Source: Squalus acanthias (Eukaryota). From it: a stretch of DNA of 64,000 nt. Shown piece after piece: positions 18,771 through 26,929 of the stretch. A model generated the notes under the pieces. The model worked only from the letters and a program-made list of their open reading frames with translations, did no database searches and had not been told where the DNA came from. Within the stretch, counting starts at the first letter, position 1. Each line of letters begins with the position of its first letter. The DNA is taken from positions 3,350,001 to 3,414,000 of the forward strand of contig JASTWF010000033.1 of the NCBI GenBank assembly GCA_030390025.1, in the 5' to 3' direction. The position numbers were made by a program, and so were the translations under genes.

Positions 18771-20249
18771 ATGGCCTATTCCTGCTCCAGATTCTTAGAT
18801 TAGGGAGTTAGGGTTAATTGGTGTCGGGCTTCCAGGCGTGATTGGGTCCCCATTTTAAAGTCCCCACATATTGTGGTTTACAGCAAAGCTTAGAGTAATA
18901 TGCAAGGCAGCTACAGTGGGTTGAACCAGAGACTGGTACACACTGAGAAACTGGGGCAGGTAAATCTGTGCTGCAGCGGCACCAAGTGGTGACATAGAGA
19001 GCTGCATTTATAATTCTGTGATGCGGAGATGCCTGTGTTGGACCGGGGTGGACAAATGTGAGAAGTCGCACAACACCAGGTTATAGTCCAACAGCTTTAT
19101 TTGAAATCACAAGCTTTCGGAGCTGCTGACTGAGGAGCAGAAGCAGCAGAGTGGTGGTCTCTGTGAGCAGGAAGAGGAGAAGGTTAAGAGACCAAAAAGA
19201 GCAACACCAGGTTGTAGTCCAACAGCTTGATTTGAAATCACAAGCTTTCGGAGCTGCTGACTGAGAAGCAGCAGCAGCAGCAGCAGCAGCAGCAGAGTGG
19301 TGGTCTCTGTGAGCAGGAAGAGGAGAAGGAGAAGGAGACCGCAGGCCACCACCAACACAACTAAAAACCACTGCTGAGGTGCCTGGAGAGAGGACAGGAG
19401 AGGAGAAGGAAAAAAAAGCCAAGGCCAAGGCCATTAACACCAGAGGAGAGGCTTTTCCACACTGCCTCCTCAATTGGCCTCCATTTTAGGAGAGGGAGAG
19501 AGGGGAGAAAACAACACCAACAAACATCATCTGTTTGGAAGGAGGGAGGAAAGAAAGAACAATAGCTACAGGTGGGTGTGATTCTGGTGCACTCTCCCAG
19601 AGACTTTGTTTTGTAGGTGGGGGGAGGAAAGAAGAAAGGAAGAAGGCCGGAACATCCAAGGGGTGTGTGTGTGTGTGTGTGTGGCTTCTGTAAAAGCTAG
19701 GCCGCACACACCATATTAAACACCCCTTTCCCATTGCCTGACCTGGGACAGCTGGAGCTGCCTAGGTGAAGTTCCCCAATTAATTTAATCTTATTGGGCA
19801 TCGTTAAGACCTGGTGCAGGACTGAGCCTGGGCATCTCCAGCTATCCCAGGTGAAGACATCTTCTCCCCCCACCAGAAGACCACCACCAAAGACTTTTAT
19901 TACATCGGAGAGTGCACCCCCCTGCCAACACCCACCCACCCACCAACCATCCTGAGTGGCGACCCTGCCCTTGCGGCTTCCCTCCTTCCCACCCCCTCTC
20001 TCTCTCTCTTTGTCTCTTGTCTCTCTCTGCCTCTCTCTCTAAGAGGCACCTCAATCTATTTTTAATTAAGTACCCATTGAGCAGAGGGGAGAAGGCCCCT
20101 CTCCCAATTAATTCATATAAAGGGAGAGGTGTGCCTTCAATTTAAGAGCTCCCTCTGCTCAGGGGAAAACAAAAACAAAAAAACCGAGGCCATTAACACC
20201 TTCAGGCCTGTGACTTGGGGTGAGTGTAGCCCTTAAAGACCAACCCATC

Positions 20250-22405
20250 ATGGCGACCACATCTTCGCCGGTGGCGGGGGTAGCGAGGACATACGCAAGC
20301 GTGGCAGCCGCGGCCACGGCCGCAGCCACGAGTCCTCCTGTTACCCCATCACCTTTTACCCTCCTTACGAGGAAGAATGGGGTCAAGAGCTACACTCACC
20401 CCAATATGACAATAGAGGCGTGCGTAAAAGCCATGGCTGGGGTTGTCGGCCCTTCAGCCATCGTCGCCGCCTCTAAAATGTACGGCAAGGCTGTGTTCTT
20501 CCTGGGGTCGGAGCGGGCGGTGTCCCTGGCCATCGAGAAGGGGCTCACCGTGGGCGGGACCTTCCTGCCGGTGGACCCCCTTGAGGCCACCGCGCAAAGG
20601 ATTGTGGTTTCCAACGTCCCGCCCTTTGTTCCGGGTGAGCTCCTCCTCCCCCACCTACGTCAACTGGGGGAGGTGAGGTCGGGGATCACACCCATCCCGC
20701 TCGGCTTCCGGGAAGCCAGCCTTCGGCACGTCTTCTCCTTCCGGCGCCAGCTTTTCGTCCGGCTGGCGCGGGAGGAGGACGCGGATGGCGCGTTCACGGT
20801 GCTCCACGGGGGGACCGCCCACCGCGTCTTCTGGACCTCGGACGGCGTGCGGTGCTACGCCTGTAAGGAGGTGGGGCACGTCCGCAAAAACTGCCCCGCC
20901 TCCAAGGCCACCACGACACCTGGCGCGGCCAGGGTTGGCGCCGCCGCCCCCCCTCCCCCTGATACTGTCCGCGCGTCGACGGCGACGGATGCGCGGTCGA
21001 AATCGGAGGCCAACACCACCACGGCCTCCGGCGGGGGGGAGGGAGAGCGTCCGGGGGGAAGGAAGGCGCGTAGGAAAAATAAACACCTAGGGGCGGATCC
21101 CCTCGTGGAGGAAACATCGGAGTTGACCGAACTCACGCCCGAGTAGATCGCGGAGTTGGTCGGGACGCATGAGACTGGGGGGGTCCTCGTGCCCGGGACC
21201 GTGACCGTGACCGCAACTGCTGAGGCAGCTAAATCAAGACCTGCGGCCGGGCTCGGGCCCGAGGGGCCCAAGAAACCCAGTCGTCGGAAGGGGGCAGAGA
21301 GGGAGGCCCCAGCAGACATGGAGGCCTCCCCCTCTCCGGGCCCCAACTTGTTAAAAAGAAAGCTCCGCCCCCAGCAGGAGGACTGCGAGGAGGAAGGACC
21401 ATCGGAAAAGGGGGGCAGTCGCCCGCCCGGGTGCTGCGCCCCACCCCACCACCGTCATCGTCGCGCGCGATCGGCAGGGGTCGTCTGTCCCTCGGGAGGG
21501 TGAGACAGCCGAGTCTGTCCGACCTGTGCCTCCCGGGGATGGGGAAGAGACCCTGCCCGTGGGGGGGGGCGCGGAACAACCCGCGGAGGGAAATGTAGTT
21601 CCGGAACCGTTGCTCCTCGCCGGGTCGGGCGTCCTGGGGACTGGGGCGGGCGAGGCCAAAGAGGCTGAAGCCGAGCCCGCCTTTTATAACCCAGACATCT
21701 CCCAGGGACTGCTCGACCTGGTGGAGGAGTGTAGCAATCCCCAGCCCGCTGGGTCGGAGGTTGGTGGCGGGGAGACGGAAAGCCCCCTGACTCCGTCTCT
21801 GTTGTTGGCGCCGGACGTGCTGGAGGAATTTGGGATTATTTTCTCCCTGGTTTCTCCGGTCGCCCCGGCGCCTGAGGCGGGGGGGGGGCCCCGAACCGCC
21901 GCCGCCGCCTCCCGGCCCGGCGCCCCTGAAGGAGCCCAGGGTGGACTCCTCTGCCACCGATCCTGGGGGTGGGATCGTGACGGAGGCAGGGCCGGCCGGT
22001 GCGGCCGAGCCGTTCGCTGCACCCTGTGCGACGGACGGGTCGGCCGCCGGTGACGACCTCCCGGAGGAGGACGGGGACTCGGTGGTGGGCATCGAGGACG
22101 ATTTGGAGTCCATCGGCAACGAGGTGATGGACGCCCTCGTGCCCTTCACCGACTCTCCCCTCATCCCCGTAGGGGAACTCCGGGATTTTATGGCCGTGAG
22201 CCAGGGTCGTCACAAGAAGATCCGGCTGGCCCTCGACAAGTGGTCGGAGCTGGCGCTGCTCGTCGTGTCCGTCCGCGCCGCTGTTAAAATCATGGGCGCG
22301 GACAAGGACATTGGCCGGCTCGAGCTGCGTCGGCTCAAGAGTTTCCACACTGGGCTGCTGAGGGAGTGGCGGTCGTCAGTGACCGCGCTCCCTCCCCTCC
22401 GTTAG
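20250..22405 (+). pseudogene. Tx1 ORF1 (RRM-like region, CCHC zinc knuckle), interrupted
   Basis: AASKMYGKAVFFL, IVVSNVPPFV, CYACKEVGHVRKNC; stop at 21144-21146 and frame changes before the C-terminal segment 21830-22405. Confidence 0.85.
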
Positions 22406-22430
22406 GTAGAGGTTGCACTATGCTTCTGAG

Positions 22431-26330: not shown

Positions 26331-26427
26331 TTTATTAAGTTTCATTTCAATTTTAATTGATTTACAGTAAATTTGGGTTCAACCAAAAGATGAACACCAG
26401 GTTATAGTCCAACAGTTTTATTTCAAA

Positions 26428-26465
26428 TCACAAGCTTTCGGAGCGGCTGCTCCTTCGTCAGGTGA
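26428..26465 (-). ncRNA. Minimal type I hammerhead ribozyme motif
   Basis: Minus strand TCAC-CTGACGA-A-GGAGC-AGCC-GCTCC-GAAAGCTT-GTGA: catalytic core, stem II, palindromic helix III (AAGCTT) and stem I (TCAC/GTGA). Confidence 0.8.
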
Positions 26466-26929
26466 AGTGATTTCAAATAAAACTGTTGGACTATAACCTG
26501 GTGTTGTGCGACTTCTCATTATAATTCTGGACAGTGCAATTTATTACAGAAAAGTTGGCACAGAAGTGTGAGAAAAAAGGGATAGGAAGATTTGTAGCAT
26601 GGAACTGGCGCAGATGAATTTGTTTTTACGTATTATTGAATCGATAAATATATGGAATGAGTGATAGAGTAATTTGATACATTTCAACATAAATAAAGGT
26701 GGGGCCATTGGGAGTATTTGGGTATAATGATTCTTGCCTATTCTGGACATTATGCCCGGGTACGAGAATTGAATCAAGCAGGTCAAGGAAATCGAATATA
26801 ATTAGTCCTGCCTCTCGTCAGAAATCAATTCAAAGTGAATATGTGTCATATACACGTGGTATATATAAATCAATCTAATATTTACTTAATATATGTTTCA
26901 AGCCCAGCAAAACACAGAACACTGAGCAT

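What the first reader, a model, noticed from the sequence alone, without database searches (positions are those of the whole stretch)
19008..26529. Tx1 LINE inserted into the hammerhead ribozyme of a palindromic Penelope-derived element: candidate new target-specific 'parasite of a ribozyme element'
Seen in sequence: removing the Tx1 restores a ~180-bp element with an 11-bp TSD (TTATAATTCTG) and 52-bp inverted arms around a minimal hammerhead on the minus strand. The Tx1 5' junction falls at ...CTTTCGGAGC, at the loop of hammerhead stem II. An uninterrupted relative of the target lies at 62636-62718. Established: Tx1-clade APE LINEs are often sequence-specific for multicopy targets (U2 snRNA, tRNA spacers, microsatellites, a DNA transposon), and Penelope-like elements carry minimal hammerheads. 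Inference: this Tx1 family uses a high-copy hammerhead repeat as its target. The duplication leaves a complete ribozyme and a ~39-bp hairpin right after the Tx1 3' end, so the target is regenerated. I do not know a described Tx1 family with this target.
Basis: partly seen in the sequence, partly recalled or inferred. Interest (0 to 1): 0.88.

Follow-up and report, generated by a model that had tools for sequence, protein, structure and literature searches.

The report
Tx1 LINE that targets Penelope tails
A young Tx1-type jumping gene in this vertebrate genome lands almost always at one spot in the tail of another, very abundant jumping gene (a Penelope-like element) and brings a short copy of that landing site with it; this is a new target for a LINE group already known for such habits.

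Summary
The finding is real and target-specific, but the target is the Penelope tail, not the ribozyme.

- **The element.** A 7.1-kb LINE sits antisense in a 180-bp palindromic tail pair of a Penelope-like element (PLE, RT+GIY-YIG). Its ORF2 is 50% identical over 1,299 aa to Xenopus Tx1L ORF2.
- **Specificity.** AACACC follows 86 of 88 exact Tx1 tails. All 40 best 3' ends and all 30 best 5' ends lie in this PLE sequence. The 28-nt site occurs 71,873 times.
- **The "52-bp duplication".** It is mostly not a target duplication. Of 12 paired flanks, 1 is identical and 9 differ at 1-4 of 45 positions. In 2, the local PLE has only 5 or 12 nt beyond the junction. The upstream copy is therefore a 45-52-nt leader brought in with the Tx1.
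- **Insertion point.** It is GCAC^AACACC, 39 nt 3' of the predicted hammerhead cleavage site. Three of 40 sites lack the hammerhead.
- **Arrays.** PLE tail plus leader rebuilds the site. Seventeen of 30 5' ends follow another Tx1, in arrays with a ~7.18-kb period.

The Tx1 clade is already known to target transposons, so this is a new target, not a new habit. This scan had already noted the family elsewhere in this genome (e1-7852016). My searches found no paper describing it.

The parts
19008..19018 (.). Left copy of the 11-nt target duplication (TTATAATTCTG) of the host PLE insertion
   Evidence: identical 11-mer at 26519-26529.
19019..19071 (-). 3'-terminal 53 nt of the Penelope-like element (PLE sense is the minus strand). 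This is the left half of the Tx1 landing site and ends ...GAAGTCGCAC.
   Evidence: The same tail precedes 12 of 30 other Tx1 5' ends. The 28-mer spanning the site occurs 71,873 times in the genome.
19072..19123 (+). Leader copy 1: 52 nt, AACACC...TTTCGGAGC, antisense to the PLE
   Evidence: family D1. It differs from the native copy at positions 24 and 32.
19124..19202 (+). Mini Tx1 unit: the first 60 nt of the body (19124-19183) joined to an 18-nt tail-like end TTAAGAGACCAAAAAGAG, plus C
   Evidence: D2. In contigs of other copies the body continues differently after 19183 (table 7, run X2).
19203..19254 (+). Leader copy 2 (52 nt), in front of the full-length unit
   Evidence: D1, 95% to copy 1.
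19255..26392 (+). Full-length Tx1 body (7,138 nt): 5' UTR with (CAG)n, ORF1, ORF2, and a 3' UTR ending ...GGGTTCAACCAAAAGATG
   Evidence: The 3' 426 nt are 99-100% identical to 39 other copies.
20250..21146 (+). ORF1 (from ATG; CCHC zinc knuckle), closed by TAG at 21144-21146. The same frame stays open beyond it to 21503.
   Evidence: Position 21146 reads T instead of G in contigs of all 4 runs laid (table 3), so the stop looks private to this copy.
22431..26330 (+). ORF2 (from ATG): APE endonuclease, reverse transcriptase, C-terminal zinc-binding domain. Uninterrupted.
   Evidence: 50% identity over 1,299 aa to Xenopus Tx1L ORF2.
26393..26444 (+). Native PLE sequence to the right of the insertion point (52 nt, homologous to the leader)
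   Evidence: It matches the local inverted arm at the C/T site where the leader does not.
26428..26465 (-). Minimal hammerhead motif of the PLE. Helix I is UCAC/GUGA. The core is CUGACGA with a bulged A, then helix II GGAGC/GCUCC (loop AGCC), then GAAA and the palindrome AGCU. The predicted cut lies between 26432 and 26431.
   Evidence: Read. Features as in PMC4209133. The core pattern occurs 24,607 times in the genome. No Rfam hit.
26467..26518 (+). Right inverted arm of the PLE tail pair
   Evidence: I1, I2.
26519..26529 (.). Right copy of the 11-nt PLE target duplication
62636..62718 (+). Uninterrupted, diverged PLE tail of a second subfamily (...CAGATTTATTTAAAATTAC...) with a degenerate hammerhead core
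   Evidence: Tx1 copies inserted into this subfamily elsewhere: L062, L078, L051/L090.

Best explanation
This is a young, probably still active family of Tx1-clade non-LTR retrotransposons that integrates site-specifically, and always antisense, into the 3' tail of a very abundant Penelope-like element.

1. The element's APE endonuclease most likely nicks the bottom strand at 5'-GAAGTCGCAC^AACACCAGG-3' (Tx1-sense notation). That point is 53 nt from the PLE 3' end and 39 nt 3' of the PLE's minimal hammerhead cleavage site.
2. Reverse transcription is primed there from the tail ...CAACCAAAAAGA(T/G)(G/C).
3. Full-length copies carry a 45-52-nt 5' leader. The leader is itself a copy of the PLE sequence to the right of the nick (AACACC...AAGCTT[TCGGAGC]).
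4. The leader comes in with the Tx1 RNA. Most likely transcription starts in the target copy upstream of the donor.
5. The leader probably serves as a homology arm that lets the cDNA end pair with the local target and make a seamless 5' junction.
6. The result looks like a 52-bp target duplication and rebuilds a full landing site (PLE tail + leader) upstream. Further insertions then pile up into head-to-tail arrays of ~7.18-kb period.

Status of the steps:
- **Shown:** the family identity, the constant junction, the abundance of the target, the imported leader and the arrays.
- **Inferred:** the nick itself, the transcription start and the homology-guided joining.

The hammerhead is a neighbour of the site, not the target.
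For: **Family.** ORF2 has APE, RT and zf-RVT domains. It is 50% identical over 1,299 collinear residues to the Xenopus Tx1L ORF2, YTX2_XENLA. Human L1 ORF2p scores 289 bits.

**Host repeat.** Next to a Tx1, the antisense flank holds a 351-aa ORF (L029). It aligns at E 7e-40 to the C-terminus of a protein with RVT_1 and GIY-YIG, including the GIY-YIG stretch. The hammerhead lies ~330 nt after that ORF's stop.

**Specificity**
- N+AACACC follows 86 of 88 exact tail words.
- Of the 40 best 3' ends found with a query that held no flank, all 40 are followed by at least AACAC. Sixteen run on into PLE, 15 into leader plus the next full unit, and 6 into 10-15 nt plus a 5'-truncated unit. Three have 5, 6 or 23 nt and then unrelated DNA.
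- Of the 30 best 5' ends found with an internal query, all 30 are preceded by the PLE-derived stretch: 29 by 45-52 nt and 1 by 15 nt.
- Of those 30, 12 follow a PLE tail with different unrelated DNA, 17 follow another Tx1 3' end, and 1 is the window itself.
- PLE remainders differ in length and shape from locus to locus, which shows independent events.
- The target 28-mer occurs 71,873 times.

**Imported leader, from 12 paired flanks**
- One pair is identical and 9 differ at 1-4 of the first 45 positions, although the 3' ends of these copies are 99-100% alike.
- L059/L101: the local PLE is a ~68-nt stub bounded by its own 12-nt duplication TAAAGATGTCAT. It has only 12 nt beyond the junction, yet the upstream side carries the full 52 nt.
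- L093/L071: only 5 nt lie downstream.
- L035/L098 and L091/L062: the downstream copy shares private or subfamily variants with the local PLE arm or body, while the upstream copy has the family-standard form.

**Re-use of the site.** Array spacings are 7,158-7,201 nt at many loci. Units of one array (C4) have different 3' tails. L014 carries a second, 39-nt Tx1 end at the same point of the opposite arm, in opposite orientation.
Against: - **No RNA evidence.** No run on record as RNA holds the stretch. What was laid are contigs, which cannot show transcript starts.
- **No enzyme test.** The endonuclease was not assayed, so the nick position is inferred from junctions.
- **Some pairs look like true duplication.** L043/L097 are identical over 45 nt. 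L054/L100 share a private variant within the first 32 nt. L051/L090 are both of the local PLE subfamily. Part of the overlap can therefore be real duplication, or the product of repair against the local copy.
- **Sampling bias.** Only the best-scoring, and so youngest, copies were examined: 40 of 1,152, 40 of 1,394 and 40 of 2,367 first-look candidates. Older copies may be less specific.
- **Uninformative count.** The C/T site at leader position 24 is C in 266 and T in 157 leader-body junctions. Native PLE copies with loop GCT show C in 12,353 and T in 5,630. The two ratios are alike, so this does not discriminate.
Confidence: 0.8

Rival explanations
1. True 45-52-bp target-site duplication. 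The endonuclease cuts the bottom strand at GCAC^AACACC and the top strand ~52 nt further on, in the loop of hammerhead stem II. Both 52-nt copies are then local.
For: The two copies flank the element as a duplication would. L043/L097 are identical, L054/L100 share a private variant, and L051/L090 share the local subfamily type.
Against: Nine of 12 pairs differ at 1-4 of 45 positions despite 99-100% identity of the element ends. In L059/L101 and L093/L071 the local target has only 12 or 5 nt to duplicate. 5'-truncated units carry only 10-15 nt of overlap, or a 2-nt deletion (L014). The leader's end varies with Tx1 subfamily (GGAGC, AAGCTT or 15 nt) and is shared within arrays.
Confidence: 0.12
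2. One Tx1-PLE composite spread by DNA-level duplication (unequal crossing-over, segmental duplication) rather than by repeated site-specific retrotransposition.
For: Some arrays have units with identical tails and a shared private variant in every spacer (C2:132.26 Mb, L056-L058). A 248-nt-period array of 233-nt truncated units exists (C17:51.14 Mb).
Against: Dispersed copies sit in PLE copies of different truncation, shape and subfamily. Their flanking DNA is unrelated, and where readable each host PLE has its own target duplication. Units of the C4 array have different 3' tails.
Confidence: 0.04
3. Chance: a non-specific LINE that often lands in an abundant repeat. Alternatively, the PLE is the element that inserts next to Tx1 ends.
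For: The PLE tail is extremely abundant (71,873 exact sites).
Against: The junction is at the same nucleotide and in the same orientation in 86 of 88 tails. Exact sites are about 1 per 52 kb. The Tx1 splits the PLE, with PLE tail on one side, PLE body on the other, and the PLE's own duplication outside both.
Confidence: 0.01

Closest known systems
Tx1L of Xenopus laevis, which integrates at one sequence within the DNA transposon Tx1D
   Same: ORF2 is collinear and 50% identical over 1,299 aa. Both are APE-type LINEs that integrate at a specific sequence inside another transposable element. Tx1L-EN nicks its site specifically in vitro (passages of PMC1950540; PMC4494074).
   Different: The target here is a retroelement, the 3' tail of a Penelope-like element, not a piggyBac-type DNA transposon. 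The 45-52-nt target-derived leader and the long arrays were shown here. I could not check whether Tx1L has them, because Christensen et al. 2000 is not held.
Tx1-Mar, Tx1-8_Crp and Tx1-4_AMi of crocodilians (Kojima 2015, PMC4494074)
   Same: These are Tx1 families with preference for a transposon family: Mariner-N4_AMi for Tx1-Mar, and specific LTR retrotransposons for Tx1-8_Crp and Tx1-4_AMi. Tandem insertions sandwiching the duplicated target are noted there for the dependent SINEU-3. The paper also proposes transcription from the flanking target (passages).
   Different: No Penelope-like target is mentioned in that text (0 occurrences of 'Penelope'). I did not see its supplements or Repbase. 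Specificity here is near-absolute (86 of 88), whereas that paper's threshold for preference is above 20% of flanks.
R2/R1-type co-transcription with the target, which assists precise integration
   Same: The template RNA carries target sequence at its 5' side. The 5' junctions are seamless and the target is restored. The idea is as summarised in PMC4494074, section 20.
   Different: Those cases involve rRNA genes transcribed by the host. Here the donor context is another transposon's tail, the orientation is antisense to it, and no transcript data exist. No ribozyme processing of the co-transcript is evident: the hammerhead is on the other strand.
Minimal hammerheads (min-HHR) of metazoan Penelope-like elements (Cervera & de la Pena 2014, PMC4209133)
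   Same: The host repeat's motif shows the described traits. It has CUGANGA and GAAA boxes, an unpaired base at the 5' end of helix II, a 4-bp helix I, and no stable helix III but a palindrome (AGCU). It lies in the PLE terminal repeat and often occurs as close pairs on opposite strands.
   Different: Nothing new about the ribozyme itself was found. Activity is untested, and the Rfam models do not score it.

Membership tests
Tx1 clade of APE-type non-LTR retrotransposons | ORF2 with an N-terminal APE endonuclease, a reverse transcriptase and a C-terminal zinc-binding region | tested here: met
   Pfam hits: Exo_endo_phos at 13-234, RVT_1 at 519-768, zf-RVT at 1128-1188.
Tx1 clade of APE-type non-LTR retrotransposons | Closest relationship of ORF2/RT to Tx1 type elements rather than to L1 proper | tested here: met
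   50% identity over 1,299 aa, end to end, with YTX2_XENLA. Human L1 ORF2p reaches only 289 bits over residues 6-870. No RT tree against Repbase references (RTclass1) could be made.
Tx1 clade of APE-type non-LTR retrotransposons | Sequence-specific integration into a multicopy target (typical of many members, not all) | tested here: met
   86 of 88 tails, 40 of 40 3' ends and 30 of 30 5' ends.
Tx1 clade of APE-type non-LTR retrotransposons | Endonuclease nicks the target at the insertion point in vitro | not testable with these tools
   Needs recombinant APE domain and target duplex.
Penelope-like elements (host repeat) | ORF with reverse transcriptase followed by a GIY-YIG endonuclease | tested here: met
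   The 351-aa ORF of L029 aligns at E 7e-40 to the C-terminal 360 aa of P0012. P0012 carries RVT_1 at 213-400 and GIY-YIG at 640-730, and the aligned stretch includes the GIY-YIG part. Pfam does not hit the fragment directly. The RT part lay outside the DNA held.
Penelope-like elements (host repeat) | Terminal repeats with a hammerhead; frequent 5'-truncated and inverted partial copies | tested here: met
   The hammerhead lies ~330 nt after the ORF stop. Variable truncations and inverted tail pairs are seen. +/- pairs of the 28-mer lie 85-250 nt apart.
min-HHR of PLEs (Cervera & de la Pena 2014) | Conserved core boxes CUGANGA and GAAA around helix II, with an unpaired base at the 5' end of helix II | tested here: met
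   CUGACGA-A-GGAGC-(AGC/AGCA/AGCC/GACA)-GCUCC-GAAA. There are 24,607 exact matches and 0 in the control. Description.
min-HHR of PLEs (Cervera & de la Pena 2014) | Short helix I (4-5 bp) that pairs across the cleavage site | tested here: met
   UCAC/GUGA in the main family and UUAC/GUAA in the second subfamily (L090, L078). That is one compensatory change, read. It is a single pair seen by eye, with no statistical test.
min-HHR of PLEs (Cervera & de la Pena 2014) | Self-cleavage (as dimers) | not testable with these tools
   No assay. Rfam hammerhead models give no hit. That is expected for a motif without helix III but gives no support.
Co-transcribed, homology-guided site-specific LINEs (R2/R1 manner) | Template RNA includes upstream target sequence | tested here: inconclusive
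   DNA evidence says the leader is imported. No transcript was seen.

The most novel reading that the evidence does not exclude
The family would be a self-renewing hyperparasite of a retroelement. Its RNA starts in the Penelope tail upstream of the donor. The 52-nt target-derived leader would then serve two roles: (i) a borrowed transcription start and (ii) a homology arm for R2-like, homology-guided 5' joining by an APE-type LINE. Every insertion, even into a 60-nt Penelope stub, would rebuild a full landing site and seed arrays. A bolder add-on is that the leader, being antisense to the 3' product of the Penelope hammerhead, pairs with Penelope RNA in vivo.
Probability: 0.35. Interest if true: 0.6.

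Novelty: new member of a known kind. Interest (0 to 1): 0.45.

Why it matters
- **A new target class.** It adds a retroelement, the Penelope tail, to the list of targets used by Tx1-clade LINEs. That list so far holds snRNA and rRNA genes, microsatellites, DNA transposons and LTR elements. This is one mobile element living almost entirely inside another, at a site present about 72,000 times.
- **A natural experiment on 5' joining.** The imported leader shows how an APE-type LINE can make its 5' junction: by homology to the target rather than by a staggered cut.
- **A candidate for retargeting work.** The endonuclease has a long, well-defined site and is a close relative of the biochemically tractable Tx1L-EN.
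- **A note for annotation.** The "52-bp target duplication" and the position "in the ribozyme" are artefacts of reading one locus.

Tried and rejected
- **Rfam.** There was no hammerhead hit at gathering scores on the whole window or at E<=10 on 26300-26600 (only spurious microRNA hairpin matches to the palindrome). The motif was therefore judged by hand.
- **Pfam on the PLE ORF fragment.** No family was found. Identity was obtained through homologues instead.
- **RNA evidence.** No RNA holder is listed. The four runs laid are contigs whose RNA status is a guess. They show that the body and the very abundant PLE tail exist in runs labelled with four organism codes, but nothing on transcript starts, strand or expression.
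- **Population count at leader position 24.** Leader-body junctions show C in 266 and T in 157. Native copies show C in 12,353 and T in 5,630. The ratios are similar and so uninformative.
- **5' ends of L085 and L086.** The predicted places hold unrelated DNA, so these copies are truncated or of other length (L094, L095). L092 hit ORF2, so that copy is not of standard length.
- **Model of a downstream copy carried at the RNA 3' end.** Rejected, because downstream copies carry local PLE variants (L062, L078, L090, L098).
- **A hammerhead on the Tx1 strand.** One subfamily's body starts with 16-19 nt identical to the sense core (CTGACGAAGGAGCAGC...). No GCUCC-GAAA partner follows, so it is read as a relic of the founder's 5' junction. 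This is inference.
- **Christensen et al. 2000 (PMC85248).** Not held.
- **Loci.** Only short stretches were read afterwards, so no second full-length copy was examined.

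
Full report
**What is at the locus**

Between two copies of TTATAATTCTG (19008-19018 and 26519-26529) the window holds, from left to right:
- 53 nt of a repeat tail (19019-19071).
- A 52-nt stretch AACACC...TTTCGGAGC (19072-19123).
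- A mini LINE unit (19124-19202), made of the first 60 nt of the body and an 18-nt tail.
- The 52-nt stretch again (19203-19254).
- A 7,138-nt LINE body (19255-26392).
- The 52-nt stretch a third time (26393-26444).
- The rest of the repeat, ending in a 52-nt arm complementary to 19059-19110.

On the minus strand, 26428-26465 reads UCAC-CUGACGA-A-GGAGC-AGCC-GCUCC-GAAA-GCUU^GUGA.

**The LINE**

ORF2 (22410-26330) is open for 1,306 codons and has APE, RT and zf-RVT domains. ORF1 has a CCHC knuckle.

ORF2 is 50% identical, end to end over 1,299 residues, to the ORF2 of Xenopus Tx1L. Human L1 ORF2p is a much weaker match. No RT tree against reference families could be made.

ORF1 of this copy is closed by TAG at 21144-21146. 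Contigs of all four runs laid read T instead of G at 21146, so the stop looks private to this copy.

The last 426 nt are 99-100% identical to 39 other copies, so the family is young.

**The host repeat**

Where the flank downstream of a Tx1 runs on, it is homologous between loci for variable lengths. Read on the opposite strand in L029 it holds a 351-aa ORF. That ORF aligns (E 7e-40) with the C-terminus of proteins carrying RVT_1 and GIY-YIG, including the GIY-YIG stretch. The host is therefore a Penelope-like element (PLE), and the Tx1 is antisense to it.

The hammerhead motif lies ~330 nt after the ORF stop. It fits the min-HHR description of Cervera & de la Pena 2014 (passages read):
- A 4-bp helix I.
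- An unpaired base before helix II.
- No stable helix III, but a palindrome (AGCU).
- Frequent close pairs on opposite strands.

A second PLE subfamily has UUAC/GUAA instead of UCAC/GUGA in helix I, which is one compensatory change (seen by eye only). Rfam does not score the motif, and cleavage is untested. The exact core occurs 24,607 times and the 28-nt landing site 71,873 times in the 3.7-Gb genome.

**Target specificity**

- The tail word GGGTTCAACCAAAAAGAT occurs 88 times, and N+AACACC follows 86 of these. By my comparison of the lists, the exact next 18 nt follow 67 of the 88.
- A query of the last 426 nt without any flank gave 40 scored places. All 40 are followed by at least AACAC:
  - 16 continue into PLE.
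  - 15 continue into 45-52 nt (one: 15 nt) plus the 5' end of a further full unit.
  - 6 continue into 10-15 nt plus a 5'-truncated unit.
  - 3 have 5, 6 or 23 nt and then unrelated DNA.
- An internal 5'-UTR query gave 30 loci. All 30 have the PLE-derived stretch in front of the body:
  - 12 follow a PLE tail and unrelated DNA.
  - 17 follow the 3' end of another Tx1.
  - 1 is the window itself.
- The first search (30 loci) included flank in the query and is therefore biased. It agrees.
- Only the best-scoring candidates are scored by the tool, so older copies remain unsampled.

**The 52-nt repeat is a leader, not a staggered-cut duplication**

I paired upstream and downstream copies for 12 insertions or arrays.
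- One pair is identical over the first 45 nt.
- Nine pairs differ at 1-4 positions.
- In two pairs the downstream side has only 5 or 12 nt of PLE.

The decisive and supporting cases:
- **L059/L101.** The local PLE is a ~68-nt stub enclosed by its own 12-nt duplication (TAAAGATGTCAT), so nothing was deleted. Even so, the upstream side carries the full 52 nt.
- **L035/L098 and L091/L062.** The downstream copy shares private or subfamily variants with the local PLE arm or body, while the upstream copy has the standard form.
- **The window.** The downstream copy agrees with the local arm at the C/T site, and both upstream copies do not.
- **Leader ends.** The end of the leader differs by Tx1 subfamily (…GGAGC, …AAGCTT, or 15 nt) and is shared by the units of an array, even where their 3' tails differ (C4 array).
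- **Truncated units.** 5'-truncated units have only 10-15 nt of overlap, or a 2-nt loss (L014).

Evidence against a purely imported leader:
- L043/L097 are identical.
- L054/L100 share a private variant in the first 32 nt.
- L051/L090 are both of the local subfamily.

Part of the overlap can therefore be true duplication, or repair against the local copy. A population count at position 24 did not discriminate.

**Mechanism proposed**

The constant junction is GCAC^AACACC. It lies 53 nt from the PLE 3' end and 39 nt 3' of the predicted hammerhead cut, so the ribozyme core is not the insertion point. Stub targets without any ribozyme are used.

The most likely sequence of events is:
1. The APE domain nicks the bottom strand at GCAC^AACACC.
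2. The RNA is copied from its tail.
3. The cDNA of a full-length RNA ends with the complement of the leader, and possibly of PLE tail further upstream.
4. That end pairs with the local target, giving a seamless 5' junction.

The nick, the transcription start and the pairing step are inferred, because no transcript data could be obtained.

The outcome is a rebuilt site (PLE tail + leader), and this explains the arrays. Spacings of 7,158-7,201 nt are seen at many loci, with up to six units in a row on C608.

**Comparison and novelty**

Tx1-clade LINEs are known to be target-specific, including for transposons:
- Tx1L inserts in Tx1D (passages of PMC1950540).
- Tx1-Mar prefers Mariner-N4_AMi, and two families prefer LTR retrotransposons. 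Kojima 2015 (PMC4494074; passages) also discusses tandem insertions and transcription from the flanking target.

I found no text describing a Tx1 family that targets a Penelope-like element:
- Search terms tx1/penelope/hammerhead/target-specific.
- tx1 + hammerhead ribozyme.
- tx1/sequence-specific/non-LTR/shark.
- Tx1L/Tx1D.
- penelope/hammerhead/shark.
- The 2026 retrozyme preprint has no mention of Tx1.

Repbase/Dfam and the papers' supplements were not seen and may hold such an entry.

This scan had already flagged the same family 2.4 Mb upstream in this genome (e1-7852016). It had also flagged the PLE min-HHRs (e1-7790369, e1-7789890). My tests agree with those notes. They add the imported leader and the arrays, and they correct the idea that the ribozyme is the target.

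**Verdict**

This is a real, well-supported new member of a known kind, of moderate interest.

Noticed in passing
window 8738-16091, 31673-31745, 37954-38025: Rfam finds seven small-RNA genes at gathering score: six tRNA matches (8738-8810 -, 9258-9330 +, 12576-12649 +, 16018-16091 -, 31673-31745 -, 37954-38025 -) and a Vault RNA match at 9867-9956 +. Two pairs look like duplicates of each other, so the window lies in a small-RNA gene cluster.
   Followed up: no
G000:C17:51139653-51140955 and 51148316-51148872 (L066, L067, L084, L087): A tandem array of ~248-nt period. Each unit is the last 233 nt of the Tx1 plus its tail, followed by only 10 nt of target (AACACCAGGT). It looks like a satellite-like amplification or repeated identical truncated insertions.
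   Followed up: partly
L014 (G000:C171:62207-65515): The opposite arm of a palindromic PLE tail pair carries a second, 39-nt Tx1 3' end. It sits at the same point of the site in the opposite orientation, with 2 nt of target missing. Both arms of one palindrome were therefore hit.
   Followed up: partly
Tx1 5' ends, e.g. L037, L039, L040, L041; window 19124-19140: One Tx1 subfamily's body begins TGCTGACGAAGGAGCAGCAGC. Of this, 16-19 nt equal the sense hammerhead core plus loop of the PLE, that is, an inverted copy of the sequence just beyond the leader. It runs straight into the (CAG)n of the 5' UTR. It is possibly a relic of a founder insertion next to an inverted PLE pair or of a template switch. 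The window's own units have the variant TGCTGACTGAGG.
   Followed up: partly
window 21144-21146: ORF1 of this copy is closed by TAG. Contigs of four public runs read T at 21146. Downstream, 21147-22409 is open only in pieces in three frames. I did not establish whether ORF1 of the family is longer.
   Followed up: partly
genome-wide (listing): Many exact copies of the 28-nt site come as +/- pairs 85-250 nt apart, for example C1:235565+/235727- and C1:904257+/904369-. The palindromic tail-pair form seen in the window is thus a common shape of this PLE's insertions.
   Followed up: no
table 5/5c (run X1): A contig joins body position 19136 to tail position 26385 with 3 extra letters. This is another 'mini' unit (the first ~12 nt of the body plus the tail) in a different copy, so internally collapsed units recur.
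   Followed up: no
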